Assembly (NCBI GenBank): GCA_041394025.1
Contig: JAWKJA010000002.1
Coordinates: forward strand, 979,178 to 1,043,177
From: Acidimicrobiia bacterium
GTDB lineage: Bacteria; Actinomycetota; Acidimicrobiia; IMCC26256; JAOSJL01
Reading direction: 5' to 3'
DNA: 64,000 nt
Shown: positions 3,196-50,501 of the stretch, in pieces
Position numbering within the stretch: position 1 is the first letter of the stretch
How the letters are laid out: the number at the start of each line of letters is the position of its first letter
The notes under the pieces: model-generated
What the model saw: only the letters and a program-made list of their open reading frames with translations
The model's database searches: none
Told to the model about the DNA's origin: nothing
Position numbers and translations under genes: made by a program

Positions 3196-4200
3196 ATGAG
3201 CCCTGTCCCTGTCGTCTACGACACCGACGGTGGCGTCGACGACTGCTCCGCGCTCTGGTACGGGCTCGTGTCGAGTGAGATCGACATCGTCGGCGTCACG
3301 TCGGTGCACGGTGTCGTGTCGGCCCAGCAGGCCGCGGCCAACGTCGCAAAGGTCCTCGTCGCAGCGGACCGCACCGACATCCCGTACGCCGTGGGCGCCG
3401 AAGAGCCGATCGGTCCCCGACCAGGGTTCCCCGAGGCGGCGCTCATGCACGGCGAGGACGGTCTCGGCAACGCCGGACCGCCCGACGTCGACCTCGCTCC
3501 GACCGAGGAGACAGGCGCCGAGCTGATCGTGCGGCTGGCCAAGGAGCGCCCCGGCGAGTTGACCCTGGTGGCGGTCGGCCCGTTCACCAACGTCGCCCTG
3601 GCGCTTCGACTCGAGCCATCGCTCCCCGACCTCCTGGGCGACCTGGTGATCATGGGCGGCGCCGCGAGGCCACCCGGCAACGCCACTCCGCTGGGCGAGT
3701 TCAACGTCGTGTTCGACCCCGTCGCCTCCAACCAGATGGTTCTCGCCGGATGGCAGAGCCCCCCGCTGATGGTCGGTCTCGACGTCACGATGTCGGCCAC
3801 CATGGGCGACGCCGAGTTCGACGCCATGAACGAGCGGGCGACTCCCCAGGCTCGGTTCATGGCCGACCCGTTCGTTCTCTACCGCCAACTGAGCGCGATC
3901 GAAACCGGCGACGGGACCTGTCCGTCCCACGACACGCTGACGATGATGGCCGTCGAGCAACCCGACGTCGTCTCGGCGACCGAACTGCCGCTCGTGGTCG
4001 ACACGGGCGGCGATGCGGCGTTCGGCATGACGGTGGTCGACTTCCGCGCCGAGTGGCTGGACAAGGGGCTCGTTCCCGAGGAGTTCAGGGACATGGCGAT
4101 CGAGCAGTTCTACGGAGGGAAGGCGAAGTGGCGCATCGCCCTCGATGTCGACGTGGAACAGTTCCGGGCCTCGATCCGGCGCTTCTACTCCGGGGGCTGA
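3196..4200 (+). CDS. Nucleoside hydrolase (inosine/uridine-preferring, IUNH family)
   Basis: 334 aa. N-terminal VVYDTDGGVDDCSAL (DxDxxxDD Ca-binding motif). LVAVGPFTNVALAL and EFNVVFDP motifs. Confidence 0.85.
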   Translation: MSPVPVVYDTDGGVDDCSALWYGLVSSEIDIVGVTSVHGVVSAQQAAANVAKVLVAADRTDIPYAVGAEEPIGPRPGFPEAALMHGEDGLGNAGPPDVDLAPTEETGAELIVRLAKERPGELTLVAVGPFTNVALALRLEPSLPDLLGDLVIMGGAARPPGNATPLGEFNVVFDPVASNQMVLAGWQSPPLMVGLDVTMSATMGDAEFDAMNERATPQARFMADPFVLYRQLSAIETGDGTCPSHDTLTMMAVEQPDVVSATELPLVVDTGGDAAFGMTVVDFRAEWLDKGLVPEEFRDMAIEQFYGGKAKWRIALDVDVEQFRASIRRFYSGG

Positions 4201-5080: not shown

Positions 5081-5389
5081 TCAGCAGCCGGTCGAGTCCC
5101 TGAGGCGCAGGCAGCTCTCCTCGATTCGTGCCGGACCGAGGACAGAGACGCGCCGGCGAAAGGCGCTCCGCGGAAGTGTGTGGATGTTGTCGAAGTTGAC
5201 GACGCAGTCGGTCGGGACACCGTCGTCCGACGCCGTGAGGACGAGCTCGGACACCAGGTTGCGGCGTGTGCGGGTGAGCGCCGCGACCACGACGAATCCG
5301 ATCGACTCGGCCACGGGATCTCGTGTGAGCACGAAGACCGGTCGGTCACCTCCGGGTGTCGAGGCGAACCACACCTCACCCCTCCGCAT
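5081..5389 (-). CDS. mazF: MazF/PemK-family type II toxin (endoribonuclease)
   Basis: 102 aa. MRRGEVWFASTPGGDRPVFVLTRDP...VVNFDNIHTLPR is typical of actinobacterial MazF toxins. Its start overlaps the upstream antitoxin gene by 14 nt. Confidence 0.85.
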   Translation of the reverse strand: MRRGEVWFASTPGGDRPVFVLTRDPVAESIGFVVVAALTRTRRNLVSELVLTASDDGVPTDCVVNFDNIHTLPRSAFRRRVSVLGPARIEESCLRLRDSTGC

Positions 5390-5627
5390 CGGCCCAGTCC
5401 GACCAGTCGTCTGCCGGACCCCAGCCGGCGACCTCGCTCAACGCCCGTTCATCGTCGGTGACAGGGGACTCGCCGTAGCGACGAGCGTCGGACACCGACT
5501 TCAGTTCCACGAGACGCCGATGCAACGCGTCGCGCAGGAGCTCGGAGCGGTCGATCCCCAGATGGTCGGCCCACCAGCGCATCTCGGCCGCTTCCTCGTC
5601 GTCGACCCGGAAGCTGAGCATTGTCAT
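5376..5627 (-). CDS. Type II antitoxin, ribbon-helix-helix-like N-terminus with an acidic C-terminal tail
   Basis: 83 aa. LSFRVDDEEAAEMRWWADHLGIDRSELLRDAL resembles an RHH fold. It lies immediately upstream of, and overlaps, mazF. Confidence 0.7.
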   Translation of the reverse strand: MTMLSFRVDDEEAAEMRWWADHLGIDRSELLRDALHRRLVELKSVSDARRYGESPVTDDERALSEVAGWGPADDWSDWADAEG

Positions 5628-5650
5628 ACAGAAATGGTATCTCGTATGAC
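5623..5650 (-). promoter_or_regulatory. Inverted repeat GTCATAC-N14-GTATGAC overlapping the antitoxin start codon; candidate autoregulatory operator
   Basis: The arms at 5623-5629 and 5644-5650 are exact reverse complements. The antitoxin ATG (5625-5627) lies inside one arm. Confidence 0.4.
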
Positions 5651-6534: not shown

Positions 6535-7161
6535 TCAGCGCGTCCCGTAGAGACGATCACCGGCGTCGCCGAGTCCGGGCACGATGTAGCCGTCCTCGTT
6601 GAGCTGCCGATCCAGCGCGGCGGCGACGACGTGGACGTCGCGATGATCGGCAGCGACGCGTTCCACGCCTTCGGGTGCCGCAACGAGACAGATCACGGTG
6701 ATCCGCCCGGCGCCGCCTTCCTTGAGGAGCCCGCATGCCGCGGAGGTGGAACCTCCCGTCGCCAACATCGGGTCGATGAGCAGCACTCGACGTTGCTCGA
6801 GGTCGGCGGGGAACTTGGCGTAGTACTCGACCGGTTCGAGGGTCTCCTCGTCGCGGTACAGGCCCACGAACCCGACCCGTGCGACAGGGATCAGATCGAG
6901 GACGGCGTCGAGCATGCCGAGGCCGGCACGGAACACCGGCACCACGGCCAGCTTCTTGCCGCTGACCTTCCGTTGGGTGGTGCGCGCCAGCGGCGTCTCG
7001 ACCTCGATGGGCTCGGTCCCGAGGTCACGGGTCGCCTCGTACGTGAGGAGCGCTGCCAGTTCGGCGACGAGGTGGCGGAACTCCTTGGTCGTCGTCCTCC
7101 GATCACGCAGGAGCGCGAGCTTGTGGGCGACCAGGGGATGCTCGACGACGGTCAGCGGCAC
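6535..7161 (-). CDS. upp: Uracil phosphoribosyltransferase
   Basis: 208 aa. VVEHPLVAHKLALLRD N-terminus, LLIDPMLATGGS PRPP motif and YIVPGLGDAGDR C-terminus. Confidence 0.9.
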   Translation of the reverse strand: MPLTVVEHPLVAHKLALLRDRRTTTKEFRHLVAELAALLTYEATRDLGTEPIEVETPLARTTQRKVSGKKLAVVPVFRAGLGMLDAVLDLIPVARVGFVGLYRDEETLEPVEYYAKFPADLEQRRVLLIDPMLATGGSTSAACGLLKEGGAGRITVICLVAAPEGVERVAADHRDVHVVAAALDRQLNEDGYIVPGLGDAGDRLYGTR

Positions 7162-7167
7162 AGCTTC

Positions 7168-7647
7168 TCAGTCCTCCCACATGTGGTCGACTCCGATGTC
7201 CTCGTTCCACAACTCGGGGTGCTCGGTGACGAAGTCCGTCATCAGCGCCACACATTCATCGTCCCCGGCGTGGACGATCTCGACGCCGGCCGCGGCCAGG
7301 AGGTGCTCAGGCCCCGCGAAGGTCTCGCGCTCACCGATCACGACTCGTCCGATCCCGTACAGGAGGATGGCGCCCGTACACATGTGGCACGGCGAGAGCG
7401 TCGTGTACATCGTGGACCGCCGGTAGACCGTAGCGGGCCGTCGGCCGGCGTCTTCGAGAGCGTCGGTTTCGCCGTGGCGGATGGCGCTGCCCATCTGGAC
7501 GCGGCGGTTGCGTCCGGACCCCAGCACCTCGCCGTCCGCCACGAGTGCCGCGCCGATGGGCACACCACCCTCGTCGCGGCTGAGGCGCGCCTGGGCGATC
7601 GCCACCTCCAGATGCTCCCGGTCCTCCGCCGTCAATTCGTCATTCAT
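7168..7647 (-). CDS. Cytosine deaminase, CDA-fold (yeast Fcy1-like)
   Basis: 159 aa. HGE...PCHMCTGAI zinc motifs, and a C-terminal EHPELWNEDIG resembling the Fcy1 tail. It lies 6 nt upstream of upp. Confidence 0.8.
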   Translation of the reverse strand: MNDELTAEDREHLEVAIAQARLSRDEGGVPIGAALVADGEVLGSGRNRRVQMGSAIRHGETDALEDAGRRPATVYRRSTMYTTLSPCHMCTGAILLYGIGRVVIGERETFAGPEHLLAAAGVEIVHAGDDECVALMTDFVTEHPELWNEDIGVDHMWED

Positions 7648-9441: not shown

Positions 9442-10374
9442 ATGACCGATCGGTTGGATCTCTACTCAACGCTCGTGGCGGCCCGCGCGCTCGAGGAGTC
9501 GGTGAGCGAGCACGCGGCGTACTACCACTCCGGCTTCGGCATGGAGGCCGTGGGCGTCGGCGTGGCCTCGGGCCTCCGGCCGACCGACCCGCTCGTCACC
9601 CACTACCGCGGCGTCGCAGCGCCGCTCGCCAAGGGGATGACGGCCCACGACATCCTCCGCAGCTTCCTGCTGAAAGCGACGTCGCCCACACGTGCACGGA
9701 GTTGGCACACCGTCGACACCGACCGGGGGCTCTACGGCCATCAGGGCACATCGGGCAGCGAGTTCGGACGGGCCGCCGGACTGGCACTCGCAGCCCAGCG
9801 GCGCGGCGAGGGCGATGTCGCCGTTGCGATGTTCGGCGACGGCTCGGCGCAGCGCGGCACACTCCACGAAGCGTTTCTCATGGCGTGCTCGTGGGATCTC
9901 CCTGTCGTCTGGGTGTGCGAGAACAACGGATACATGATCTCCACGCGCGCGGATCGGATCTTCCCCGGCGCCATCGCCGATCTGGCGGGTGGCTACGCGA
10001 TGCCGTGCCTGACAGTCGACGGCAACGACGTGTTCGCTGTGTCAGGCGCCATGGACGAGCTCACCGAAGCGGTGCGAAGCGGCGGACCTCCGGCCTTCCT
10101 CGAGGCGCAGACCTTCCGGGTCCGATCCCACACCGAGATCGAGGAGGCTCCGTACCAGGATCCCGAGGAGGTTGAACGGTGGAGGGAACGCGACCCTTTG
10201 GCCGTGGCCCGTGGCCTGCTCATCGACGAAGGAGCCTCACCCGAGGAGATCGACGAGCTCGAGGCAGGCACCCGAGCCGAGATCGATGCAGCGACAGCAG
10301 ATGTCCTGGCGGAGCCCGATCTGGATCCGACCGCCAACCCCTACGAGTACCTCTACGCGACAGAGGCGACCTGA
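9442..10374 (+). CDS. Thiamine-diphosphate-dependent 2-oxoacid/acetoin dehydrogenase E1 component, alpha subunit
   Basis: 310 aa with a GDG...NN-type ThDP motif (FGDGSAQRG...VCENNGY). Confidence 0.85.
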   Translation: MTDRLDLYSTLVAARALEESVSEHAAYYHSGFGMEAVGVGVASGLRPTDPLVTHYRGVAAPLAKGMTAHDILRSFLLKATSPTRARSWHTVDTDRGLYGHQGTSGSEFGRAAGLALAAQRRGEGDVAVAMFGDGSAQRGTLHEAFLMACSWDLPVVWVCENNGYMISTRADRIFPGAIADLAGGYAMPCLTVDGNDVFAVSGAMDELTEAVRSGGPPAFLEAQTFRVRSHTEIEEAPYQDPEEVERWRERDPLAVARGLLIDEGASPEEIDELEAGTRAEIDAATADVLAEPDLDPTANPYEYLYATEAT

Positions 10375-10376
10375 CG

Positions 10377-11348
10377 ATGACCGAGATGGGCTTCTTCCAG
10401 GCCGTCACCGAGGCGATCGCCGACGAGATGGACCAGGACCCCACCGTGATGCTGTGGGGTGAGAACGTCGAAGACCCCTACGGCGGTCTGCTCCAGCAGT
10501 ACGCAGGGCTGTCGACGCGGTTCGGCGACCGCGTGAAGGACTCCCCGTTGGCCGAGACCGCGATCGTCGGAGCCGCCATGGGCGCGGCCATGGGTGGACT
10601 GCGTCCGGTCGTCGACATCCAGATCGCCGACTTCTCGTTCGTGGCCATGGAAGAGATCGTGCGAGCGCCGCGGTGGCGACACACGCATGGTGGAGCCGGC
10701 GACATGCGGATGCCGATCGTCGTCAAGACGCTCGTCGGCGGTTACATGGGCGTGGGTGCCAACCACTCGCAGGTCCCCACCGGATTCTGGTGGCACACAC
10801 CCGGTCTGAAGATCGCGTTTCCCACGACACCGTCGGACGCGTACGGGCTCATGCGCAGCGCCATCCGCGACGACGACGTCGTGATGTTCTGCACGCACAA
10901 GCTCTACGCGTTCGAGGCCGGCCAGGTGGAGAGGAAGCCCGTTCCGTTCGGTCGGGCCGCCGTTCGCCGAGAAGGTGGCGACGCCACCATCGTGGCGCTC
11001 GGATACATGACCACGATCGCCTCTCAGGCCGCCGACATCCTGGCGGCTGAAGGCGTCGACGTGACGATCATCGACCCCCGCACCCTCGAGCCCTTCGACC
11101 TCGACACCGTCATGGGCTCCGTCGAGGAGACGGGTCGGTTGGTCGTCGTCGACGAGGACCATGCGCGCAGTGGGGCCGCCGCAGAGATCTGCATGCAGGT
11201 CCGGGAGGCTGCCGGACCGTCGACGTTGTCAAGCTCGCCCCGGCGCGTCGCCACGGGGAATGCCCCGTTGCCCGACGGTCCCCCTGAACTCCAGCTCCTC
11301 CCGAGCGCGCAGGGCGTCGCCGACGCCGTTCGGGCGACGCTCGCCTGA
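10377..11348 (+). CDS. 2-oxoacid/acetoin dehydrogenase E1 component, beta subunit
   Basis: ATG at 10377, 2 nt after the alpha-subunit stop. FFQAVTEAIADEM..GENV, DSPLAETAIVGAAMGAA and a transketolase-like C-terminal domain. Confidence 0.85.
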   Translation: MTEMGFFQAVTEAIADEMDQDPTVMLWGENVEDPYGGLLQQYAGLSTRFGDRVKDSPLAETAIVGAAMGAAMGGLRPVVDIQIADFSFVAMEEIVRAPRWRHTHGGAGDMRMPIVVKTLVGGYMGVGANHSQVPTGFWWHTPGLKIAFPTTPSDAYGLMRSAIRDDDVVMFCTHKLYAFEAGQVERKPVPFGRAAVRREGGDATIVALGYMTTIASQAADILAAEGVDVTIIDPRTLEPFDLDTVMGSVEETGRLVVVDEDHARSGAAAEICMQVREAAGPSTLSSSPRRVATGNAPLPDGPPELQLLPSAQGVADAVRATLA

Positions 11349-11373: not shown

Positions 11374-11904
11374 TCAGGCGTCGGCTGGGTCGTCGGTTGT
11401 CTCCGTGACCACCGAGAGATCCACGCCCTCCACGGCCGCGCCGAGGTCCTCCATCCAGTCGTCGGGATGGGCAGCGATGAACTGCGTCGTGAGCTCGATG
11501 ACCTCCGGCTCTCCCAGATCGATCACCTCGACGCCGGCCGCCTCGAGGAAGTCGTGGCTGGGCGTGCGGACGCCGTCCACCGATGCCAGGCCCGCCACGA
11601 CTCGGGGGATTCCCAGTTGTACGATGGCGCCTGCGCAGAGGAAGCACGGGATGGCGTTGGTGACGAGCGTCGTCTGCGCCAACTCGGCCAGCGGGACCGT
11701 TCCCGCCGCGCGTAGGCACGTGATCTCGGCGTGGGCGGTGACGTCACCGTCCTGGTAGTGGCGGTTCCGGCCCGTCGACAGCACAACACCGTCGGCGGTC
11801 CGCACGAGCGCAGCGCCGAACGGCGCGCCGTTCTCCGCCAGGCTCGCCCGCGCTTCACGGCTCGCCTCCGCCCACCCGGGTGTGTCTGCAGTTGAACTCT
11901 CCAC
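11374..11904 (-). CDS. CDA-fold nucleoside/nucleobase deaminase, divergent Fcy1-like paralog
   Basis: 176 aa. HAE...PCFLCAGAI zinc motifs, an AHPDDWMEDLG tail and an acidic C-terminal extension. GTG start. Confidence 0.75.
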   Translation of the reverse strand: MESSTADTPGWAEASREARASLAENGAPFGAALVRTADGVVLSTGRNRHYQDGDVTAHAEITCLRAAGTVPLAELAQTTLVTNAIPCFLCAGAIVQLGIPRVVAGLASVDGVRTPSHDFLEAAGVEVIDLGEPEVIELTTQFIAAHPDDWMEDLGAAVEGVDLSVVTETTDDPADA

Positions 11905-11956
11905 AACCGCTCACTTCGTTGGATGATTGAGGTGGGATCAGCCTACGCTCCGCGGC

Positions 11957-12904
11957 GTGACGACGCTGCTGATCGACACCGACCCGGGAGCCGACGACGC
12001 TGTCGCCATCGCCATGGCGTTGCGCACCCCCGATGTAGAGGTGGCCGCCCTCACCACCGTGGCCGGGAACACCGGACTCGACGCGTCGACACGGAACGCT
12101 CTGATCGTCCTGGACCGGGCCGGCCACGACGACATCCCGGTGCATCCCGGCGCCGACCGTCCGCTCGAAGCCGAACCGGCGGCGGCAGGCCACATCCACG
12201 GTGAAGACGGACTCGGGGATCAGGGATTCGCCGCTGTCGGAGCGCCCCACGAGACTCCGGCCGTCGACGCCACGATCGCCCTGCTGCGCGAGCGAGGCCC
12301 GCAGATCACCTGGGTGGCCCTGGGTCCTCTCACGAACATCGCCTCGGCCGTACTCGAGGATCCGGACACCTGTCGCGCGGCCTCCGAACTCGTCGTCATG
12401 GGAGGAACGGGTGACGGCGTCGGCAATGTCACTCCCGCGGCCGAGTTCAACTTCTGGGCCGATCCCGAGGCGGCCCGCATCGTGCTCCGCTCGGGAATGC
12501 GCATCAGGGTCGTCGGATGGGACGTGTCCCGGCGCGACGCTCTGATCTCCGGGGCCGACCGGGATGCTCTTCTCTCATCGAGCGACGACCTGGGAGCCTT
12601 TCTCCATGCGGCGACGAGCACACTGTTCGAGTTCACGTCACGCCGCGAGCCCGTGGACACGATGGATCTCCCGGATCCTGTGGCGGTTGCCGCAGCCATC
12701 GAGCCCGAGTCGGCTGACTGGGTCGACGTCCACGCAGACGTCGAGTGCAGCGGGGAGCTCACCCGGGGTGCGCTCGTGGTCGACCACCTCGGCAATACGG
12801 GCCTGGACCCGAACATCACCCTCTGCACGGCGTTCGATTCCCGGCGTTTCCGCGAGATGTTCCTCGACACGCTGACGTCGGGGGGAAGGGAACGGGTGTC
12901 GTGA
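11957..12904 (+). CDS. Nucleoside hydrolase (IUNH family), second copy
   Basis: LLIDTDPGADDAVAIA motif, WVALGPLTNIA and EFNFWADPEAA. I prefer the GTG at 11957 over the track's TTG at 11927, so the start is uncertain. Confidence 0.8.
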   Translation: MTTLLIDTDPGADDAVAIAMALRTPDVEVAALTTVAGNTGLDASTRNALIVLDRAGHDDIPVHPGADRPLEAEPAAAGHIHGEDGLGDQGFAAVGAPHETPAVDATIALLRERGPQITWVALGPLTNIASAVLEDPDTCRAASELVVMGGTGDGVGNVTPAAEFNFWADPEAARIVLRSGMRIRVVGWDVSRRDALISGADRDALLSSSDDLGAFLHAATSTLFEFTSRREPVDTMDLPDPVAVAAAIEPESADWVDVHADVECSGELTRGALVVDHLGNTGLDPNITLCTAFDSRRFREMFLDTLTSGGRERVS

Positions 12905-14172
12905 CACACGACGTGAATGCCCGCTCGCGGATCGCCGACGCGGCTCTCGCCCATGTCGGTGACGAGCGGATCGCATGGGTGGAGCGCCACTCTCCCGTTC
13001 TCAACGCCCTGGCACGCGAACGACTGTCCGATGGAGCGCTCACCGGCCGACGCGTCGCCGTCGTCGTTCACCTCGAGGCCAAGACGGCGTACCTGGCGCT
13101 GCTCCTCGCCGAGGCCGGAGCCCACGTCGTCGCCGCGGGGAGCAATCCCCGCTCGACGAACGACGCCGTCTGCGCCGCACTCGTGCGCCGAGGAGTCGAG
13201 GTCCACGCGGTGCACGGCGCCGGGCCGGGCGAGTTCGACGCCGACCTCCTGGCCGTCGCCGACACGGCACCCGAGATCGTCGTGGACGACGGCGCCGAGC
13301 TCACGACCCGGATGGCCCAGCACCGCGGTGACCTCCTCGGCGGTCTGCGGGGTGTCACGGAAGAAACCACGACAGGCGTGGCCCGTCTCCGTGCGATGGA
13401 CGCGGCCGGCCGACTCACGTTTCCAGCCGTCGCCGCCAACGACGCCGCCTGCAAACACCTCTTCGACAACCGCTACGGAACGGGCCAGACGACGGTCCAG
13501 GCTGTTCTCGCCCTGACCAATTCGACGTTGTGGGGAACGGCGGTCACCGTTGTCGGCTACGGCTGGGTCGGGCGCGGTGTGGCGCAGTACGCCCGTGGAC
13601 TGGGCGCGCGAGTCACGGTTGTCGAGGTCGACCCTGTCAAGGCGCTCGAGGCGCACATGGAGGGCTACCGCGTCGGATCCCTCTCCGAGGTGCTACCCGA
13701 CTCCCGAGTCGTCGTGACCGCAACCGGTGGCGTGGACGCGATCCCCGCCGATGCGGTGCCCCTGCTCCGCGACGGCGTGATCCTCGCCAACGCCGGCCAC
13801 GACGACCGCGAGATCGACGTCGGCACGCTCCGTGAGGCCGCAGAGTCCGTCGACGAGCCCCGCGCCGGCGTGGAACGGCTCCGGCTCCCAGGGGACCGGG
13901 AGGTCCACCTGCTCGTCGGAGCGGGACTCGTCAACATCGCCGGTGGCGACGGCCACCCGATCGAGATCATGGACCTGAGTTTCGCCGTGCAGGCGCTCTC
14001 GGCCCACTACATCGCCTCGACATCGCTCGCTCCGGGAATCCACCGGTTTCCGGACGATCTCGACCGAGCCATCGCACGTACGAAGCTCGCCACTCTGGGA
14101 ATCACCCTCGACGAGTCGGCTTCGGCGCTCGACGCCATCCGCGGCGAGTGGGCGAGTGGGGAGCACACATGA
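12901..14172 (+). CDS. ahcY: Adenosylhomocysteinase-like hydrolase, short archaeal/bacterial type, with the canonical catalytic residues retained
   Basis: GTG at 12901 overlaps the upstream stop (GTGA). VHLEAKTA, VVDDGAEL, TEETTTGV, KHLFDNRYG, VVGYGWVGRG, NAGHDDREID and GHPIEIMD. Confidence 0.85.
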   Translation: MTHDVNARSRIADAALAHVGDERIAWVERHSPVLNALARERLSDGALTGRRVAVVVHLEAKTAYLALLLAEAGAHVVAAGSNPRSTNDAVCAALVRRGVEVHAVHGAGPGEFDADLLAVADTAPEIVVDDGAELTTRMAQHRGDLLGGLRGVTEETTTGVARLRAMDAAGRLTFPAVAANDAACKHLFDNRYGTGQTTVQAVLALTNSTLWGTAVTVVGYGWVGRGVAQYARGLGARVTVVEVDPVKALEAHMEGYRVGSLSEVLPDSRVVVTATGGVDAIPADAVPLLRDGVILANAGHDDREIDVGTLREAAESVDEPRAGVERLRLPGDREVHLLVGAGLVNIAGGDGHPIEIMDLSFAVQALSAHYIASTSLAPGIHRFPDDLDRAIARTKLATLGITLDESASALDAIRGEWASGEHT

Positions 14173-15389
14173 GCGAGATCGCCGACCCGTCGCTGGCGCC
14201 GACGGGCGAGACGAAGATCGCGTGGGCAGCCGACCGGGCACCCGTGATGGCCACCATGCGGGATCGGCTCCGGACCACAGGCGATGTCGAGGGGCGCCGG
14301 ATCGCCGTCGTTCTCCCCATCGAGCCCAAGACCGCTCTCCTGGCACGGATCCTGGCTGAATCCGGCGCCGAGGTGTCGATCACGTCCCCGCCGAGCATGG
14401 TGCACGACGACGTGGCCGCCGCGCTCTCGGCCGGGGGCGTCGAGGTGCTCGCCCGACGAAACATGAGCACCGACGACGAACAGCGCTACCACGGGATGCT
14501 GCTCGACCGACGTCCCGAGGTGATCGTCGACGACCGGGCCGACCTCATCACGCTGGCGCACACTTCCCGCACCGAGGCGCTCGACGATTTGATCGGAGCG
14601 ACCGAGCAGACGACCTCTGGTATCGAGGTCCTGACCCGACTCGACGCCGAGGGAACTCTCCGCGTTCCCGTGATCGCCGGCAACGACGCTCGTTGCAAGC
14701 ATCTCTTCGACAACCGCTACGGATCCGGCCAGTCGGTGATCGCAGCCGTCCTCGACCGCACGAACCTCCTCATGGCGGGCGCCAACGTCGTGGTCGTCGG
14801 CTACGGCTGGGTGGGTCGAGGTGTCGCCCGGGTGGCCGCCGGGATGGGAGCGAGGGTCACGGTCACGGAGGTCGACCCGGTTGCCGCCCTCGAGGCACAC
14901 CACGACGGCTTCGAGGTGGCGACCGTGCTCGACGCATGTGGCTCCGCCGAGTTCGTGATCACCTGCTCCGGGGTGCACGGGGCGCTGAGCCCCGAGGCGA
15001 TCGACCGCTGCCCGGACGGAGTCGTGCTCGCCAACGCGGCCGGCATCGACGATGAGTTCTCGGTTCCCGATCTCGCCGCCCGCGCGTCGACGCAGCGCAG
15101 GGTGCGACCCGAGGTCGACGAGTACGAGATGCCCGACGGCCGGTCGGTCTTCGTCGTCGGCGGCGGGCACTGCGTGAACCTGTCAGCCGGTGAGGGTCAC
15201 CCCGTGGAGATCATGGATCTCAGCTTCGCGGTGCAGGGCCTGGCCGCTGCCCACCTGGCGCGCCACGGCGGCGAGATGACGCCGGGTCTGCACGCGCTCC
15301 CCACGTCGATCGACGACCAGATCGCCCGCGACAAGCTGGCTGCGCTCGGAATCTCCATCGACGGGCGGGGACGGCAGCGCGAGACGTGA
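14169..15389 (+). CDS. Adenosylhomocysteinase-like paralog with substituted catalytic positions
   Basis: ATG at 14169 overlaps the upstream stop (ATGA). It keeps KHLFDNRYG, VVGYGWVGRG and GHPVEIMD. It has LPIEPKTA, TEQTTSGI and NAAGIDDEFS where paralog 1 has VHLEAKTA, TEETTTGV and NAGHDDREID. Confidence 0.8.
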   Translation: MSEIADPSLAPTGETKIAWAADRAPVMATMRDRLRTTGDVEGRRIAVVLPIEPKTALLARILAESGAEVSITSPPSMVHDDVAAALSAGGVEVLARRNMSTDDEQRYHGMLLDRRPEVIVDDRADLITLAHTSRTEALDDLIGATEQTTSGIEVLTRLDAEGTLRVPVIAGNDARCKHLFDNRYGSGQSVIAAVLDRTNLLMAGANVVVVGYGWVGRGVARVAAGMGARVTVTEVDPVAALEAHHDGFEVATVLDACGSAEFVITCSGVHGALSPEAIDRCPDGVVLANAAGIDDEFSVPDLAARASTQRRVRPEVDEYEMPDGRSVFVVGGGHCVNLSAGEGHPVEIMDLSFAVQGLAAAHLARHGGEMTPGLHALPTSIDDQIARDKLAALGISIDGRGRQRET

Positions 15390-15404: not shown

Positions 15405-15875
15405 TCACGACTCCTGGCGTCCCTGGCCGCGGGCCGCGGCCACACTCAGGCGATCGAGCGTCTCACCCATCCCACGCCGCAGTCGTGCCGGACGACCCAG
15501 CAGGCGCTCGACCGCGAGCATCACCGTGGGCGTCTCCAGCGACTCGTACGACTCGGTGACGCGTGTGCCGCCCTCGACGGGCTCGAGCCGGTAGCTCCAG
15601 CGCGTCAGAGGTCGACCGCCTCGACCCGTTACGTAGACGAGCTCGCGGTCGACCTCGCAGACCTCGAGCTCGCCGCGGGTCGTCCAGCGCAGTAGCCCCC
15701 AGCGGTTGTGGCCGACAAAGGTGCGCCCCGGGCCGAACGGGGCGCCGGGATCGTCCCATGTGCAGCCCGTGCACTCCGGGCTCCACTCCCCCATCCGGGG
15801 CAGGTCCGCGAGCAGCGCCCACACCCGCGCGGGTGGGGCGGGGACGACGACGCTCACCTCGTCGGTCAGCTTCAC
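15405..15875 (-). CDS. SRPBCC (START/polyketide cyclase-like) family protein
   Basis: GTG at 15875 overlaps the TetR stop (GTGA). 156 aa; VVPAPPARVWALLADLPRMGEWSPE is typical of SRPBCC proteins. Confidence 0.7.
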   Translation of the reverse strand: MKLTDEVSVVVPAPPARVWALLADLPRMGEWSPECTGCTWDDPGAPFGPGRTFVGHNRWGLLRWTTRGELEVCEVDRELVYVTGRGGRPLTRWSYRLEPVEGGTRVTESYESLETPTVMLAVERLLGRPARLRRGMGETLDRLSVAAARGQGRQES

Positions 15876-16441
15876 CGCGAAGGATCCGCGAGCAACTCGA
15901 GCAGTCGGTCGAACAGCATCCGGGGTGGCTCCTCGAGCAACCCTGCGGCGTGCAGGAACTGGATCCCGGCGCATGCCGCCGCCAGGAGCTGAGCCGAGAG
16001 CGCGTCGATGCTGCCCTCGCCATCGTCGGTGGCGAGACTCTGCAACGCCTCCACCGCGGGAGCGACCTCGGTGACGAGCTCGGGGTCGGCGCCCGCGGCC
16101 AGGACCCCTTCGAGCACCGCGCGTACTGCACCCACCTCCGTGCGCTCCAGGTATGCAGCCTGGTCCGCCAGGAACGTCGCGGTCCGCTCCGCTCCCGTGG
16201 GAGCACGGCGCGAAGCGTCGGCCACCTCCCGGGCGAACACCTCGACCTGGCGCCGGAGGGTCGCGCGCAGAAGATCGTCGCGGTCGCGGAAGTAGCGGTA
16301 GACGGCGGGCGCGGTCATCCCCGCTGCCGCCGCGACGTCGGCCACCTGGAGGCTGCTCGCACCCCGCTCGATCACCGCGGCGGTGGCGAGCGAGAGGAGC
16401 CGGTCCCGCGTCGCCTCGTGGTGTGTGGCCGGTCGCGCCAT
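15872..16441 (-). CDS. TetR family transcriptional regulator
   Basis: 189 aa. N-terminal HTH: SLQVADVAAAAGMTAPAVYRYFRDRDDLL. Confidence 0.85.
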   Translation of the reverse strand: MARPATHHEATRDRLLSLATAAVIERGASSLQVADVAAAAGMTAPAVYRYFRDRDDLLRATLRRQVEVFAREVADASRRAPTGAERTATFLADQAAYLERTEVGAVRAVLEGVLAAGADPELVTEVAPAVEALQSLATDDGEGSIDALSAQLLAAACAGIQFLHAAGLLEEPPRMLFDRLLELLADPSR

Positions 16442-16497
16442 GACCCGGACCTCCGTTCCACACCGGTCTTGACCGACCGGTGCACCGTCTGTTAAGC

Positions 16498-16513
16498 AGC
16501 GTTACGTAACGCT
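16498..16513. promoter_or_regulatory. Perfect 16-bp palindrome AGCGTTACGTAACGCT; candidate TetR operator
   Basis: It lies in the 96-nt divergent region between the TetR gene (start 16441) and the amidohydrolase (start 16538). A second inverted repeat, CACCGGT-N8-ACCGGTG, is at 16461-16482. Confidence 0.5.
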
Positions 16514-16537
16514 AGTTCACAGAACCCCGGAGGAGCC

Positions 16538-17677
16538 ATGACCGAGCACCCCGTGATCGACGCCGACGGCCACATCCTGGAGGGACCCGGCTTCTTCGTC
16601 GAGTACCTGCCCGCCGACCTGGCGGCCACGGCCTTCGAGCTCCTGCCGGGTTCCGAATTCGACGACGGCATCGAACGCATGAGGTTGGCCGGCCACACCG
16701 TCACGATGGACATCGCCATCGGCGACGGGTGCACACCCGACGGGCTGCTCGCCGGAAACGCCACCGGCCGTGGATTCGAGGACATCCACGCCGGGGCCTT
16801 CGAGGCGCCCGCGAGACTCGACCTCATGGACGACATGGGGATCGACGTGTCGGTCCTCTACCCGTCGTTGCTGCTCATGGCCCAGATGTTCGACGATTCG
16901 ACCCGCGCCACGATCGTCGACGCCTACCAGCGCTGGATGGCCGACTTCTGCGCGGCGGATCCCGTCCGCCTCCGATGGGTGACGCCGGTTCCCCGCGTGT
17001 CGGTCGACGAGGCCGTCACCCACGTCGAGAACGCCGCCGACCGAGGGGCGGTCGGTGCGTTCTTCAGCGCGGCGCCGGCGCCGGGTTCGGGGCGCCTCGT
17101 CGGCGATCCCGCCGAGGACCCGATCCTCGATGCCCTGGTCGCACACGACCTCCCCCTCGCACTCCACGTCACCGACGGTTGGAACTCCACCTTCGACATG
17201 CGTCGACTGCTCCCGAACCGTCTGATGTGGGACATCGCGGCGGGGCCGATCGACATGATGCACGGCCTCACATACGTCCTCACCAGCGGGATGCTGGACC
17301 GGTATCCAACCCTCCGCGTCGCGATCCTCGAGGGGAACGTCGGGTGGATCCCCTACTGGGCGCACAAGATCCACGAGAGCTACGAGCACCTCGGCTCGCT
17401 GTACGACGAGCCGCCCCGCACCGCACTCGAGACGCTGCGGGAACGATGCTGGGTGTCGGGTGAGACCGACGAGCCCGGGCTCGCAGGGGTTGCCGCGCTC
17501 CTCGGGGCCGACCGGTGCCTCTGGGCCACCGACTTCCCGCACTTCGAGGCGAGCTGGAAGCCCGTCGATGAGTTGACCAGCCGTGATGACCTCACCAATG
17601 ACCAGAAGTCGGCGATGCTGTGCGACTCGTCGGTGACGTTCTACGGTCTCGACAGGGCGAGCCTTCCGACCCACTGA
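16538..17677 (+). CDS. Amidohydrolase-2 family protein (ACMSD-like metal-dependent hydrolase/decarboxylase)
   Basis: 379 aa. VIDADGHILE N-terminus and CLWATDFPHFE C-terminal motif. GGAGGAG RBS. Confidence 0.8.
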   Translation: MTEHPVIDADGHILEGPGFFVEYLPADLAATAFELLPGSEFDDGIERMRLAGHTVTMDIAIGDGCTPDGLLAGNATGRGFEDIHAGAFEAPARLDLMDDMGIDVSVLYPSLLLMAQMFDDSTRATIVDAYQRWMADFCAADPVRLRWVTPVPRVSVDEAVTHVENAADRGAVGAFFSAAPAPGSGRLVGDPAEDPILDALVAHDLPLALHVTDGWNSTFDMRRLLPNRLMWDIAAGPIDMMHGLTYVLTSGMLDRYPTLRVAILEGNVGWIPYWAHKIHESYEHLGSLYDEPPRTALETLRERCWVSGETDEPGLAGVAALLGADRCLWATDFPHFEASWKPVDELTSRDDLTNDQKSAMLCDSSVTFYGLDRASLPTH

Positions 17678-36363: not shown

Positions 36364-36397
36364 TCGCCTCTCCCCGGTCGTTCGTCCTTCAGTTGCG

Positions 36398-39890: not shown

Positions 39891-39984
39891 CGGTCGGATG
39901 CGAATCAGGTAGCGAAGTTATATCATCACTCCCTACGCCCGGCGACCGGGCCGCGCGTGATCACGCCACCCGGGGGGGAATCCG

Positions 39985-49564: not shown

Positions 49565-49571
49565 TCACGGG

Positions 49572-50501
49572 GTGACGTCGGCGCCCAGCCTGCGGGACGC
49601 GGGAAAGGTCTACGTCGAGGTCGGTCTCAACGAGGTTGCGTCGAAGGATCGCAACGCCAACATCCCGTACGGCCCCGACGAAGTGGCGGCGGACGCGATC
49701 GCGTGCGCGCAGGCCGGCGCATCCGTGATCCACTTCCACGCCCGCCACGGCGACGGTACGCAGGCGTGGACCGACGACGGTGTCTACCGGCGGGCGATGG
49801 AGCTCATCGCCGAGGAGGCGGACCTCGTCACCTACCCCACCTATCCGCCCCGCGTCGACCGGGAGGAGCGGTACCGCCACCTGTGGGCGCTGGCCGACGA
49901 GCCCTCGACGGCCCCGCTGGAGCTGGCGCCGATCGACATCGGCTCGCGCAACGTGTCGTTGTGGGAGCCAGACAAGCAGCGGTTCGCGCCCCTCGGGATC
50001 CTGCCGGCCGAGAGCCAGGTGGCGCTCAACCCTCCCGACGAGATCGAGTGGGTCATCGCCCGGGCCGCCGAGCGTGGACTGCATCCCACGCTGGGCGTCT
50101 TCGACATGACGTATCTTCGGTACTCGATCCACGCGCTCTGGGCGGGCCTGCTGAAACCTCCTCTGCTCCTCAAGTGGTTCCTGTCGGAACGGTGGGTCGG
50201 CGGCACGTTCCCCACCCCCGCGGGACTCGACGCCTACCTTTCCCAGGTTCCCGACGGCGTGGATCACGAGGGGCTCGTGGTGCCCTACGCGATGTCGAAA
50301 GCCGACGACGTCGAAACCCTGTGGAGGCACGGCCTCGAGCGCGGTCAGAACATCCGCGTCGGTATCGGCGACAACCCGGAGGCCTTTGCCACATCCACGA
50401 ACACCGAGCTCGTGGAACGCGCCGTGGAGCTCATCGCCGGTTACGGCCTGAGACCGGCGACGGCCGACGACGTCAGGAACCGCCTCGGCCTCCGGGTTTG
50501 A
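49572..50501 (+). CDS. Beta-keto acid cleavage enzyme (BKACE/DUF849, 3-keto-5-aminohexanoate cleavage enzyme family)
   Basis: 309 aa. GLNEVASK...PYGPDEVAADAIACAQAGASVIHFHAR is the BKACE N-terminal signature. GTG start 7 nt after the SBP stop. Confidence 0.8.
   Translation: MTSAPSLRDAGKVYVEVGLNEVASKDRNANIPYGPDEVAADAIACAQAGASVIHFHARHGDGTQAWTDDGVYRRAMELIAEEADLVTYPTYPPRVDREERYRHLWALADEPSTAPLELAPIDIGSRNVSLWEPDKQRFAPLGILPAESQVALNPPDEIEWVIARAAERGLHPTLGVFDMTYLRYSIHALWAGLLKPPLLLKWFLSERWVGGTFPTPAGLDAYLSQVPDGVDHEGLVVPYAMSKADDVETLWRHGLERGQNIRVGIGDNPEAFATSTNTELVERAVELIAGYGLRPATADDVRNRLGLRV

What the first reader, a model, noticed from the sequence alone, without database searches (positions are those of the whole stretch)
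11374..15389. Translationally coupled cassette of a nucleoside hydrolase and two SAH-hydrolase paralogs, divergent from a CDA-fold deaminase
What the sequence shows: three plus-strand genes are chained by 4-nt overlaps (GTGA at 12901-12904 and ATGA at 14169-14172). A zinc deaminase is transcribed divergently, with only about 50 nt between the starts.

A single ahcY is the norm, so a tandem pair fused into an operon with a ribonucleoside N-glycosidase is unusual.

Established precedent: some archaea deaminate SAH to S-inosylhomocysteine and cleave it with a SAH-hydrolase homolog.

Inference: this cassette could be an alternative route for SAH, 5'-thionucleoside or modified-nucleoside disposal, rather than housekeeping methyl-cycle ahcY.
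Basis: partly seen in the sequence, partly recalled or inferred. Interest (0 to 1): 0.65.

Follow-up and report, generated by a model that had tools for sequence, protein, structure and literature searches.

The report
Two-gene SAH-hydrolase pair with nucleosidase
A soil actinobacterium chains a nucleoside-splitting enzyme to two old sister copies of the enzyme that clears the methylation by-product SAH: one copy is complete and the other has lost its key catalytic histidines but is still carefully conserved, so bacteria seem to have a previously undescribed two-part version of this supposedly uniform enzyme.

Summary
The deaminase (11374-11904, minus strand) diverges from an overlapping plus-strand chain of IUNH, P1 and P2, with GTGA at 12901-12904 and ATGA at 14169-14172.

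- P1 is a complete archaeal-type SAH hydrolase with the HxExK fingerprint, which has been shown to mark S-inosylhomocysteine-preferring enzymes.
- P2 is not a recent duplicate. It belongs to an old sister family that keeps the NAD and nucleoside-binding residues. It has lost the thiol-protonating His (now Pro) and the His-Phe gate, and has gained an invariant Arg.
- P1→P2 adjacency, usually with a 4-nt overlap, held in every metagenomic and genomic locus examined. P2 is under purifying selection (dN/dS 0.11).
- In relatives the pair is commonly followed by an MTA/SAH-deaminase-like amidohydrolase and flanked by a nucleoside-binding lipoprotein. Natural fusions exist (P1-type::His-less module; His-less module::amidohydrolase).
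- The link to the IUNH and the divergent deaminase occurs only in this Acidimicrobiia subclade (4 loci).
- That deaminase resembles yeast cytosine deaminase, so it is unlikely to be an SAH deaminase.

Best reading: a heteromeric SIH/SAH hydrolase (catalytic P1, non-hydrolytic P2) whose nucleoside product is removed by the coupled IUNH. I could not test whether the genome has another ahcY. I rate it a new variant of a known kind, interest about 0.6.

The parts
11374..11904 (-). FCY1-type (cytosine-deaminase-like) zinc deaminase with the CDA fold, 176 aa, transcribed divergently from the cassette
   Evidence: It matches PF00383. The best solved relatives are yeast cytosine deaminase entries (1uaq, 1ox7, 8i3o; E 3e-25 to 1e-24), aligned over the full length including the C-terminal DWxEDxG lid. 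HAE and PCxxC are present, and N51, E64, W152 and D155 are conserved, while I33→F and F114→V (read from the alignment). Orthologs lie divergent from the cassette in L209 (81% id), L002 (75%) and L085 (54%).
11905..11956 (.). 52-nt divergent intergenic region, probably holding the promoters; the IUNH-P1-P2 transcript is possibly leaderless
   Evidence: ACTTCGTTGGAYGATTGA and TACGCT blocks are conserved between the window and L209, and TACGCT lies 7 nt before the GTG at 11957. This is read from the sequence only. The sigma-70 consensus scan found nothing, and there is no inverted repeat.
11957..12904 (+). IUNH-family N-ribohydrolase (315 aa; an alternative TTG start lies at 11927) in which the canonical catalytic His is replaced by Pro
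   Evidence: PF01156 matches over its full length (E 4e-88). The protein is RihC/RihA-like but scores below the NCBIfam cut-offs. The best PDB matches are RihA/YbeK and IU-NH. DTDPGADD, HGEDGL, GPLTN and AAEFN are kept, but LHDP has become LPDP in all four cassette orthologs and in 114 of the 120 nearest homologs. dN/dS is 0.17 against L209.
12901..14172 (+). P1: a catalytically complete archaeal-type SAH/SIH hydrolase (423 aa) with the HxExK fingerprint and a GHD gate
   Evidence: It scores 496 bits on NF004005 (cut-off 275) but falls below the TIGR00936 cut-off. The best PDB matches are 3x2e (T. maritima, E 3e-105) and 7r37 (P. furiosus). The motifs HLEAKTA, DDGAE, EETTTG, K..FDNRYG, NAGHDDRE and GDGHP are present. 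The P1 clade has 100% bootstrap support. dN/dS is 0.13.
14169..15389 (+). P2: a His-less SAHH-like paralog (406 aa). It retains the NAD and nucleoside-binding residues but lacks the catalytic His55 equivalent (Pro) and the His-Phe gate (Ala-Gly-Ile); here Glu156 is Gln, and Gly132 is Arg
   Evidence: It is 46% identical to P1. Its motifs are PIEPKTA, SPPSMVHDD, DDRAD, TEQTTSG, NAAGIDDE, GYGWVGRG and GEGHPVEIMD. All 120 nearest homologs lack the His. The AF2 model has pLDDT 83 and TM 0.75-0.78 to T. maritima and P. furiosus SAHH. dN/dS is 0.11. The protein is 100% identical to an NCBI protein annotated 'MAG: adenosylhomocysteinase [Acidimicrobiia bacterium]'.

Best explanation
The three plus-strand genes form one translationally coupled operon for disposing of S-adenosylhomocysteine through its deaminated form.

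1. P1 is the working hydrolase. It is an archaeal/Thermotoga-type SAHH with the HxExK motif, so it probably prefers S-inosyl-L-homocysteine (SIH → inosine + homocysteine) and can also take SAH.
2. P2 is an ancient sister paralog that always travels with P1. It still binds NAD and a (hypoxanthine-type) nucleoside, but it lacks the histidine that protonates the leaving thiol and the His-Phe gate. It most likely assembles with P1 into a hetero-oligomer, as a non-hydrolytic (structural, regulatory or ligand-binding) subunit.
3. The IUNH-family N-ribohydrolase fused to the front of the pair removes the nucleoside product (inosine or adenosine → base + ribose). This pulls a reaction whose equilibrium favours synthesis and yields ribose and a salvageable base.
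4. The divergently transcribed deaminase is a Fcy1-type free-base deaminase. It belongs to the surrounding nucleoside and base salvage genes and is not the SAH deaminase.

Shown: gene anatomy, residue states, conservation of the pair, its gene neighbours and fusions, and purifying selection.
Inferred: substrates, hetero-oligomer formation, and the product-removal role of the IUNH.
For: Family and fold:
- Both P1 and P2 are SAHH-fold proteins.

P1 looks active:
- P1 keeps every catalytic residue and has HxExK. Koeppl et al. 2024 (PMC10978960) showed experimentally that HxExK enzymes prefer SIH but still turn over SAH.

P2 looks non-hydrolytic:
- P2 has Pro at the position of the His that donates a proton to the Hcy sulfur (the role is given in PMC13406329) and has no gate His-Phe.
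- The same loss is seen in 120 of 120 nearest homologs: 113 have Pro plus DDR, 6 have Ala plus DDM, and 1 could not be placed at the His position but has the P2-type DDR/ASGI motifs.
- K186, D190, N191, H353, M358 and GxGxxG are invariant across P2 homologs.

P2 is maintained and co-inherited with P1:
- dN/dS is 0.11 for P2 and 0.13 for P1.
- P1 and P2 are sister clades, separated from canonical enzymes with 100% bootstrap support, and their internal topologies are congruent.
- P1 lies directly upstream of P2 in all 32 metagenome loci that include upstream sequence, and in L001-L003, L006, L008 and L083-L085.
- The stop and start overlap by 4 nt in 29 of 35 measured pairs.
- An 800-aa natural fusion of a P1-type module to a His-less module has 8 cluster members from ENA, NCBI and Logan.

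Pathway context:
- An MtaD/DadD-like amidohydrolase lies directly downstream of P2 in 10 of 29 eligible loci. Its best PDB match is 4f0r, an MTA/SAH deaminase (E 2e-67).
- The same ahcY-mtaD arrangement occurs in 33 of 73 canonical single-gene loci.
- His-less module::amidohydrolase fusions exist: a Rarobacter incanus protein of 998 aa, and an 889-aa cluster with 10 members.
- A Bmp/PnrA nucleoside-binding lipoprotein is adjacent in 15 loci.

The IUNH link:
- The IUNH-to-P1 4-nt overlap is conserved in the window, L209, L002 and L085.

The deaminase:
- It is Fcy1-like, and a paralog sits beside upp.
Against: - No biochemical data exist for any member of the P1 or P2 clades.
- P1-type genes can occur alone (L208). 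P2-like genes occur without an adjacent P1 in Rubrobacter (L004, L005, L007) and in one Acidobacteriota locus (L009, where the gene sits next to an MtaD-like gene). An obligate heteromer is therefore not proven, and P2-like proteins may work on their own.
- P2's pocket is conserved and has acquired new invariant residues (Arg after DD; [MFY]-V in place of S-T). This looks more like a changed specificity than a dead site.
- No MtaD-like SAH deaminase and no Bmp gene occurs in the 64-kb window, so the source of SIH in this organism is unknown. An adenosine-deaminase-family gene lies 20 kb away.
- The cassette IUNH lacks the canonical leaving-group His, so its substrate cannot be read from known subgroups.
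- LacI regulators and transporters beside the pair in several loci fit uptake and catabolism of an external nucleoside as well as they fit the internal methyl cycle.
- No SAH riboswitch was found.
Confidence: 0.5

Rival explanations
1. P2 is an enzyme in its own right, not a silent partner. On this view it is an NAD-dependent SAHH-fold catalyst with altered acid/base equipment. It would act on a different product of the associated deaminase (for example 5'-methylthioinosine or 5'-deoxyinosine) or carry out a different oxidation-triggered elimination. P1 and P2 would then be consecutive or parallel pathway enzymes.
For: - P2-like genes occur without an adjacent P1, in one case beside an MtaD-like gene (L009) and in Rubrobacter after an ECF transporter.
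- A His-less module is fused to an amidohydrolase with no P1 nearby in Rarobacter.
- The ligand-binding residues and the new Arg and [MFY]-V residues are invariant.
- Purifying selection is strong.
- Dozens of 50%-identity clusters of His-less SAHH-like proteins exist.
Against: - P2 lacks the proton donor for a thiolate leaving group and the gate His that contacts O5'.
- No alternative acid/base residue was identified.
- In the core clade P2 was never found without P1 directly upstream.
- P1::His-less fusions argue for physical association.
Confidence: 0.25
2. One reading: the divergent CDA-fold deaminase converts SAH to SIH, one or both paralogs cleave SIH, and the IUNH degrades the inosine. 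The whole cassette would then be a self-contained alternative SAH route.
For: - The divergent deaminase is conserved with the cassette in 4 loci.
- These loci and the window lack the MtaD-like deaminase that follows the pair elsewhere, so a non-orthologous replacement is conceivable.
- P1 has the SIH-type HxExK motif.
Against: - The deaminase aligns end to end with yeast cytosine deaminase. It keeps the residues that hold a free pyrimidine base (N51, D155, W152) and the C-terminal lid that closes a small pocket.
- No CDA-fold enzyme among its PDB relatives acts on SAH.
- A 44%-identical paralog sits in a classical deaminase-upp pair nearby.
- 0 of 73 canonical loci and none of the core pair loci carry such a deaminase.
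Confidence: 0.1
3. The cassette serves uptake-linked catabolism or salvage of external nucleosides (SAH/SIH or other purine ribosides released from decaying biomass), not the cell's own methyl cycle. A separate housekeeping ahcY would then exist elsewhere in the genome.
For: - The pair is flanked by nucleoside-binding Bmp lipoproteins in 15 loci, by LacI-family regulators in L106, L144, L150, L207 and L211, and by an ABC importer in L211.
- The window surrounds the cassette with salvage genes (a second IUNH, upp, a second deaminase) and catabolic genes.
- A P1-type gene stands alone in a housekeeping setting in a related MAG (L208).
Against: - In L084 and L113 the pair follows the glycine-cleavage genes, which belong to one-carbon metabolism.
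- ahcY-mtaD operons are the ordinary arrangement in bacteria with a single archaeal-type gene.
- Whether another ahcY exists in this genome could not be tested.
Confidence: 0.3
4. The SAHH-like genes belong to a nucleoside natural-product pathway, like the SAHH-homologous dehydratase AgmF of angustmycin biosynthesis (comparison recalled from my own knowledge).
For: - SAHH homologs have been recruited to nucleoside antibiotic pathways (own knowledge).
- An 824-aa double SAHH-like protein occurs in Saccharopolyspora species.
- The window contains P450 and AveC-like genes, but they are distant from the cassette.
Against: - No biosynthetic genes are conserved next to the pair in about 45 loci. The recurrent neighbours are a deaminase, a nucleoside-binding protein and regulators.
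- The pair is widespread in soil Actinomycetota and Acidobacteriota.
Confidence: 0.03

Closest known systems
Archaeal/Thermotoga-type SAH hydrolase acting as S-inosyl-L-homocysteine hydrolase (M. jannaschii SIHH, T. maritima and P. furiosus SAHH) together with the DadD/MtaD (TM0936-type) SAH deaminase
   Same: - P1 has the same fold, the short archaeal-type length and all catalytic residues, including the HxExK nucleobase fingerprint.
- In relatives the pair is followed by an MtaD/DadD-like amidohydrolase, just as single-copy bacterial genes are.
   Different: - Here the hydrolase comes as two co-inherited paralogs, and the second lacks the catalytic and gate histidines.
- P1's gate is His-Asp or His-His instead of the 'universal' His-Phe.
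- In this window the amidohydrolase deaminase is absent, and an IUNH is fused upstream instead.
AHCYL1/AHCYL2 (IRBIT), the catalytically inactive metazoan paralogs of AHCY
   Same: They are SAHH-fold paralogs with substitutions at critical catalytic residues. A heterotetramer with the active enzyme has been postulated (PMC12955632).
   Different: - AHCYL proteins are restricted to animals, carry an N-terminal IRBIT domain, act in Ca2+ and ion-transport signalling, and are not genetically linked to AHCY. Evidence that they bind AHCY is weak.
- P2 is bacterial, has no extra domain and sits in the same operon as P1, with overlapping codons. It derives from the HxExK archaeal-type lineage.
Catalytic subunit plus dead-paralog complexes (trypanosomatid deoxyhypusine synthase; AdoMetDC prozyme)
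   Same: The proposed working principle is the same: an oligomeric enzyme in which an impaired or inactive paralog pairs with the catalytic one (DHS: PMC3663545, listed; AdoMetDC prozyme from my own knowledge).
   Different: These are unrelated protein families in eukaryotic parasites. For P1/P2, neither activation nor complex formation has been shown.
IU-nucleoside hydrolases (E. coli RihA/RihB/RihC, Crithidia IU-NH)
   Same: The cassette IUNH shares the full-length fold and the DxDxxxDD Ca2+/ribose site, plus the HGE.GL, GP.TN and EFN motifs.
   Different: - The leaving-group His (His239 in RihA, His241 in IU-NH) is Pro in the cassette enzyme and in 114 of its 120 nearest homologs.
- Translational coupling to an SAHH gene was not seen at any of the 73 canonical loci.
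Yeast cytosine deaminase Fcy1 with Fur1 (UPRT)
   Same: - The divergent deaminase aligns over its full length with Fcy1 and keeps its zinc and substrate residues.
- The window also has a deaminase-upp pair at 6535-7647.
   Different: - Two pocket residues differ (I33→F, F114→V).
- The cassette copy is paired with an IUNH/SAHH operon instead of UPRT.
- Its substrate is untested.

Membership tests
[quoted passage not shown] | Two-domain SAHH fold with a Rossmann NAD-binding domain (PF05221 + PF00670) | tested here: met
   Pfam E-values are 4e-37 and 2e-35. NF004005 scores 496 bits against a cut-off of 275. PDB entry 3x2e matches at E 3e-105.
[quoted passage not shown] | Catalytic set, in human numbering: His55, Asp131, Glu156, Lys186, Asp190, His301, His353 | tested here: met
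   HLEAKTA, DDGAE, EETTTG, CKHLFDNRYG, NAGHDDRE and GDGHP all align with T. maritima and P. furiosus SAHH.
[quoted passage not shown] | Conserved Gly-His-Phe molecular gate | tested here: not met
   The gate is GHD in the window. It is GHH or GHD in all 120 nearest homologs except one that has GHR and two in which the motif was not located; the Phe is never present. The literature describes GHF as highly conserved.
SIH-preferring subgroup (SIHH-type) | HxExK nucleobase-binding fingerprint instead of HxTxE/Q | tested here: met
   P1 has HLEAK. The rule comes from Koeppl et al. 2024. Substrate preference itself was not measured.
[quoted passage not shown] | SAHH fold and NAD-binding motif | tested here: met
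   Pfam hits. PDB entry 3x2e matches at E 1.5e-100. GYGWVGRG is present. The AF2 model has pLDDT 83 and TM 0.75-0.78 to 3x2e and 7r37.
[quoted passage not shown] | Catalytic His55 (proton donor to the Hcy sulfur), Glu156 and His301-Phe302 gate | tested here: not met
   P2 has PIEPKTA (His→Pro), TEQTTSG (Glu→Gln in this subclade) and NAAGIDDE (no His-Phe). The His is absent in 120 of 120 nearest homologs. P2 therefore should not be filed as an adenosylhomocysteinase, despite the database name.
[quoted passage not shown] | Homotetrameric quaternary structure | not testable with these tools
   Only indirect evidence exists for a hetero-oligomer: invariant adjacency, overlapping codons, congruent trees and natural fusions.
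Archaeal/Thermotoga SAH→SIH→inosine route | A DadD/MtaD-type SAH deaminase encoded with or near the hydrolase | tested here: not met
   tblastn with MtaD-like queries finds no homolog in the 64-kb window. The feature is met in relatives: 10 of 29 eligible pair loci and 33 of 73 canonical loci. The rest of the genome could not be searched.
IU-nucleoside hydrolase family (PF01156) | N-terminal DxDxxxDD motif and ribose/Ca2+-binding residues | tested here: met
   DTDPGADD, AGN, GPLTN, AAEFN and the Asp of LPDP are present.
IU-nucleoside hydrolase family (PF01156) | Catalytic leaving-group His (RihA His239, IU-NH His241) of group I enzymes | tested here: not met
   The position is Pro in the window, L209, L002 and L085 and in 114 of the 120 nearest homologs. 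It is also neither the Trp nor the Cys of the other described groups (group definitions from my own knowledge).
Fcy1-type cytosine deaminase (CDA fold) | H(A/G)E and PCxxC zinc site, plus Asn51, Trp152 and Asp155 substrate contacts and the C-terminal lid | tested here: met
   The alignment to yeast cytosine deaminase covers the full length at E about 1e-24 and conserves these residues. Activity was not tested.
AHCYL/IRBIT inactive paralogs | N-terminal IRBIT domain; metazoan distribution | tested here: not met
   P2 is 406 aa with no N-terminal extension and occurs in bacterial contigs. AHCYL features are taken from PMC12955632.

The most novel reading that the evidence does not exclude
The His-less SAHH-fold proteins (P2 here, plus the larger 'V/I-E-K' group with 100-330-aa N-terminal extensions and amidohydrolase fusions) may form an unrecognised, widespread bacterial enzyme class. 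On this reading they have their own NAD-dependent chemistry on deaminated 5'-substituted purine nucleosides, or they are the organising subunit of a deaminase-hydrolase(-nucleosidase) complex that channels SAH to hypoxanthine, ribose and homocysteine. They would not be mislabelled 'adenosylhomocysteinases'.
Probability: 0.2. Interest if true: 0.8.

Novelty: new variant of a known kind. Interest (0 to 1): 0.6.

Why it matters
SAH hydrolase is treated as a uniform homotetramer with invariant catalytic residues and a universal His-Phe gate. It is a drug target and a tool for SAM-regeneration biocatalysis.

These loci show a large group of soil bacteria in which the enzyme is encoded as two co-inherited paralogs. 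One paralog has systematically replaced the thiol-protonating and gate histidines, yet it remains under strong purifying selection. The His-less module is also found fused to the catalytic subunit or to a deaminase-superfamily amidohydrolase (in the core clade the adjacent, unfused amidohydrolase is MTA/SAH-deaminase-like).

If the heteromer model is right, this would be the first bacterial counterpart of the 'active enzyme plus dead paralog' design in the methyl cycle. It would also extend the SAH→SIH route well beyond archaea and Thermotoga. If instead P2 has its own activity, thousands of database entries named adenosylhomocysteinase hide a new enzyme.

The IUNH coupling offers a simple, testable way of pulling the unfavourable hydrolysis, which could be useful for in vitro SAM-cycle designs.

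Tried and rejected
- **Genome-collection scan with a P2 alignment.** Only 7 of 80 loci were P2-like. The other 73 were reused as a canonical control set.
- **P2-specific DNA pattern on metagenomes.** 87 of the 120 stretches were chance matches in GC-rich DNA. The 33 true loci were used.
- **My crude ORF caller.** It produced antisense shadow ORFs ('family 2'). Neighbour counts were therefore redone by tblastn.
- **SAH or SAM riboswitch upstream of the pair.** No Rfam hit at gathering threshold in the window or 11 related loci.
- **Sigma-70 promoter scan.** Nothing found.
- **Operator-like palindrome in the cassette promoter.** None found. The 36-bp palindrome at 16488-16523 lies between the TetR gene and the Amidohydro_2 gene and occurs once in the window, so the conserved downstream TetR probably does not control the cassette.
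- **Recent tandem duplication.** Rejected: P1 and P2 are 46% identical and form separate old clades.
- **P2 as a decaying pseudogene.** Rejected: the ORF is intact, dN/dS is 0.11, and the ligand site is invariant.
- **Horizontal-transfer island.** No compositional signal: GC is 0.67-0.72 across the window and GC3 matches the neighbouring genes.
- **Literature searches for bacterial heteromeric or pseudo-SAHH.** Nothing found.
- **Another ahcY, mtnN or luxS in the genome.** This could not be determined, because only the 64-kb window and ±10-kb flanks were accessible. Among the window genes whose families were checked (gene calls for ~4.2-25.4 kb and Pfam scans of 20 further ORFs; ORFs beyond ~54 kb and a few shorter ones were not scanned), none was metK, metH, mtnN or luxS.

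Full report
**1. Observation**

- A 176-aa ORF runs on the minus strand at 11374-11904.
- An IUNH ORF ends at 12904.
- P1 (12901-14172) starts with the GTG of GTGA at 12901-12904.
- P2 (14169-15389) starts with the ATG of ATGA at 14169-14172.

An independent gene call on an identical public contig starts the IUNH at GTG 11957, which leaves 52 nt between the divergent starts. Pfam assigns PF00383, PF01156, and PF05221 plus PF00670 (twice). Codon-position GC matches the neighbouring genes. No terminator-like or promoter-like site interrupts the plus-strand chain. P2 is 100% identical to an NCBI protein from an Acidimicrobiia MAG.

**2. The two SAHH-like genes are not equivalent**

They share 46% identity. 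Both are closest to the short archaeal/Thermotoga-type enzymes: T. maritima 3x2e, P. furiosus 7r37 and the M. maripaludis entry 7r3a.

P1 keeps every catalytic residue when aligned to these:
- His of HLEAKTA
- DDG
- EETTTG
- Lys and Asp of K..FDN
- NAGH
- GHP

P1's nucleobase fingerprint is HxExK. Koeppl et al. 2024 showed that this fingerprint marks enzymes preferring S-inosylhomocysteine over SAH, although all of them still convert SAH (PMC10978960).

P2 differs at the following sites:
- PIEPKTA: the His that protonates the leaving homocysteine sulfur (role given in PMC13406329) is Pro.
- SPPSMVHDD replaces SNPLSTQDD.
- DDRAD replaces DDGGD.
- TEQTTSG replaces EETTTG.
- NAAGIDDE replaces the Gly-His-Phe gate.

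P2 does retain the Glu and Lys of the fingerprint, Asp131, Lys186, Asp190, Asn191, His353, Met358 and the GxGxxG NAD motif. An AlphaFold model built from 14 P2-type sequences has mean pLDDT 83 and superposes on T. maritima and P. furiosus SAHH with TM 0.75-0.78.

**3. The pair is an old, conserved unit**

- All 120 nearest database relatives of P2 lack the His: 113 have Pro plus DDR, 6 have Ala plus DDM, and 1 could not be placed at the His position.
- Nearly all 120 nearest relatives of P1 have His plus DDG and a GHH or GHD gate, and none has the Phe described as universal; one sequence could not be scored for any motif.
- In a bootstrapped NJ tree, P1-type and P2-type sequences together separate from canonical single-copy enzymes with 100% support. 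The P1 clade (100%) and the core P2 clade (98%) show the same Acidimicrobiia subclade.
- A P2-specific DNA pattern recovered 33 metagenomic loci. In all 32 that include upstream sequence, a P1-type gene lies directly upstream on the same strand.
- The same holds for L001-L003, L006, L008 and L083-L085.
- The P1 stop and P2 start overlap by 4 nt in 29 of 35 measured pairs.
- Against the 84-89%-identical locus L209, dN/dS is 0.13 for P1 and 0.11 for P2 at dS 0.6-0.8, so P2 is as constrained as P1.

**4. Neighbours and fusions point to SAH/SIH metabolism and nucleoside handling**

- An Amidohydro_1 gene lies directly downstream of P2 in 10 of 29 loci with at least 400 nt of downstream sequence. 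In most of these its coding homology begins upstream of the P2 stop, so the genes apparently overlap.
- That gene's best solved relative is the MTA/SAH deaminase 4f0r (E 2e-67). TM0936 is also among the hits.
- The same ahcY-then-deaminase arrangement occurs in 33 of 73 loci with a single canonical HxExK gene. None of the 73 has an IUNH or an Fcy1-like deaminase.
- A Bmp/PnrA-type nucleoside-binding lipoprotein is adjacent in 15 pair loci.
- LacI-family regulators recur beside the pair.
- In two loci the pair follows the glycine-cleavage genes.

An exhaustive search of 1.84 billion cluster representatives found 502 relatives at E ≤ 1e-30. Among the best 150, about 65 keep the His. About 45 form a second His-less group with V/I-E-K at the fingerprint, the gate His replaced by Gly, and His353 replaced by Asn. 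Most of these carry a 100-330-aa N-terminal extension that resembles a decayed SAHH cofactor domain.

Natural fusions exist:
- An 800-aa protein joins a P1-type module to a His-less module (8 cluster members from ENA, NCBI and Logan).
- 998-aa (Rarobacter incanus) and 889-aa (10 members) proteins join a His-less module to an amidohydrolase.
- An 824-aa double SAHH-like protein occurs in Saccharopolyspora species.

The 800-aa fusion sits in a LacI-controlled operon with an ABC importer and an amidohydrolase.

**5. What is specific to this window**

The IUNH-P1-P2 chain with a divergent deaminase was found only in the window and in L209, L002 and L085. In each, the IUNH stop overlaps the P1 start by 4 nt. 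The window contains no MtaD-like or Bmp homolog.

The IUNH keeps the DxDxxxDD site and the ribose and Ca2+ ligands. However, it has Pro where RihA and IU-NH have the leaving-group His. The same is true in all four cassette orthologs and in 114 of the 120 nearest homologs. A second IUNH in the window (about 3196-4200) keeps the His.

The divergent deaminase aligns end to end with yeast cytosine deaminase (E about 1e-24). It conserves Asn51, Glu64, Trp152, Asp155 and the C-terminal lid. A 44%-identical paralog lies next to upp at 6535-7647. It is therefore best read as a free-base, cytosine-type deaminase within a local salvage cluster.

**6. Mechanism proposed**

Shown:
- P1 is equipped for the full oxidation, elimination, hydration and reduction cycle and has the SIH-type base pocket.
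- P2 cannot protonate a thiolate leaving group in the canonical way and has no gate, yet it is conserved at the NAD and nucleoside sites.
- The two genes are co-inherited, translationally coupled and sometimes fused.
- The clade is linked to an SAH/MTA-deaminase homolog.

Inferred:
- P1 and P2 form a hetero-oligomer in which P1 hydrolyses SIH (or SAH) and P2 is a non-hydrolytic partner.
- In this subclade the IUNH removes the inosine or adenosine product, driving a reaction whose equilibrium favours synthesis and releasing ribose and base.
- The deaminase serves base salvage.

I put this combined model at about 0.5. My estimates for its parts are: P1 as an SIH/SAH hydrolase about 0.75, P2 as a complexed non-hydrolytic subunit about 0.5, the IUNH acting on the product about 0.5, and the deaminase being cytosine-type about 0.6.

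**7. Rivals and open points**

- P2 may be an enzyme in its own right. P2-like genes occur without an adjacent P1 in Rubrobacter (after an ECF transporter with a QueT-like component) and in an Acidobacteriota locus next to an MtaD-like gene. The Rarobacter fusion has no P1 nearby.
- A P1-type gene also stands alone among TCA-cycle and other housekeeping genes in L208, so the partnership is not obligatory for P1.
- The transporters and regulators fit catabolism of external nucleosides as well as they fit the internal methyl cycle.
- Whether this genome has another ahcY or mtnN could not be tested with the data available.

**8. Comparison with what is known**

The closest known system is the archaeal/Thermotoga SAH→SIH route (DadD/MtaD plus an HxExK hydrolase). 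The closest analogue for P2 is the metazoan inactive paralog AHCYL1/2, for which a heterotetramer with AHCY is only postulated (PMC12955632).

I found no report of a bacterial His-less SAHH paralog, a heteromeric SAHH, or an IUNH-SAHH operon. Databases name both genes adenosylhomocysteinase. I therefore rate this a new variant of a known kind, with interest about 0.6.

Noticed in passing
window 3196-4200 (+), 6535-7161 (-), 7168-7647 (-): A second nucleoside and base salvage set lies 4-8 kb upstream of the cassette. It comprises another IUNH that keeps the catalytic His, a bona fide upp (uracil phosphoribosyltransferase, above the NCBIfam cut-off), and a second Fcy1/TadA-like CDA-fold deaminase directly upstream of upp, with about 6 nt between the two genes.
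   Followed up: partly
window 11957-12904; L209, L002, L085; P0241-P0360: The cassette IUNH belongs to a large subgroup in which the canonical leaving-group His (LHDP) is Pro (LPDP). This holds for 114 of 120 nearest homologs, many annotated 'purine nucleosidase'. Their leaving-group activation mechanism and substrate are unclear.
   Followed up: partly
P0385-P0495 (representatives); L210 10001-12997; L211 8001-10403: There is a diverse second family of His-less SAHH-like proteins (V/I-L-E-P-K-T-A, gate GG, GEGNP). They carry 100-330-aa N-terminal extensions that look like a decayed SAHH cofactor domain. Some are fused to an amidohydrolase (Rarobacter incanus WP_211344965.1, 998 aa) or to a P1-type module (800 aa). 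All are annotated adenosylhomocysteinase.
   Followed up: partly
L004 294-4895 (Rubrobacter sp. MAG): A distant P2-like gene (PIEAKTA, DDRAG, NAGG) directly follows ECF-transporter genes: a duplicated ABC ATPase, EcfT/CbiQ and a QueT-like S component. No P1-type gene is in the locus.
   Followed up: partly
window 35215-36414 (-): An adenosine-deaminase-family protein (PF00962; below the NCBIfam adenosine deaminase cut-offs) lies 20 kb from the cassette. It is the only candidate purine-nucleoside deaminase seen in the window.
   Followed up: no
window 16488-16523: An 83%-complementary 36-bp palindrome (TCTGTTAAGCAGCGTTAC|GTAACGCTAGTTCACAGA) lies between the TetR gene (15872-16441, minus strand) and the Amidohydro_2 gene (16538-17677, plus strand). 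It occurs once in the window and is a likely TetR operator for that divergent pair, not for the cassette.
   Followed up: partly
window 15405-16441 (-); L209, L002: An SRPBCC/polyketide-cyclase-like gene and a TetR gene are conserved immediately downstream of P2, convergent with it, in the window, L209 and L002 but not in L085. Their function relative to the cassette is unknown.
   Followed up: no
window 5081-5630 (-): A PemK-family toxin gene and a small upstream partner (a putative toxin-antitoxin pair) sit between two SDR genes inside the salvage region.
   Followed up: no
window 9442-11348 (+); L085 6330-8245: The E1 alpha and beta subunits of a 2-oxoacid (acetoin/pyruvate-type) dehydrogenase, with no adjacent E2 or E3, lie directly upstream of the deaminase. 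Their synteny (SDR, alpha/beta-hydrolase, E1a, E1b, deaminase, IUNH, P1, P2) is shared with L085.
   Followed up: no
L084 4173-11248; L113: In two core-clade loci the P1-P2 pair directly follows the glycine-cleavage genes (gcvT, gcvH, gcvP1, gcvP2) on the same strand. This links the pair to one-carbon metabolism.
   Followed up: no
L001 6763-8001, L006 8754-9992, L008 8742-9980: Some P1-type partners carry their own deviations: GDGNP (His353→Asn) with FDNP[HY]G in L001 and L006, and loss of the gate His (NSGNYAHE) in the Thermoanaerobaculia locus L008. 'Catalytically complete' is therefore not true of every P1.
   Followed up: no
window 39961-41103 (+), 49458-50501 (+): An AveC-like spirocyclase-family protein and a BKACE (beta-keto acid cleavage enzyme) gene lie among amine oxidases and a branched-chain amino-acid-type ABC transporter. 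They appear unrelated to the cassette.
   Followed up: no
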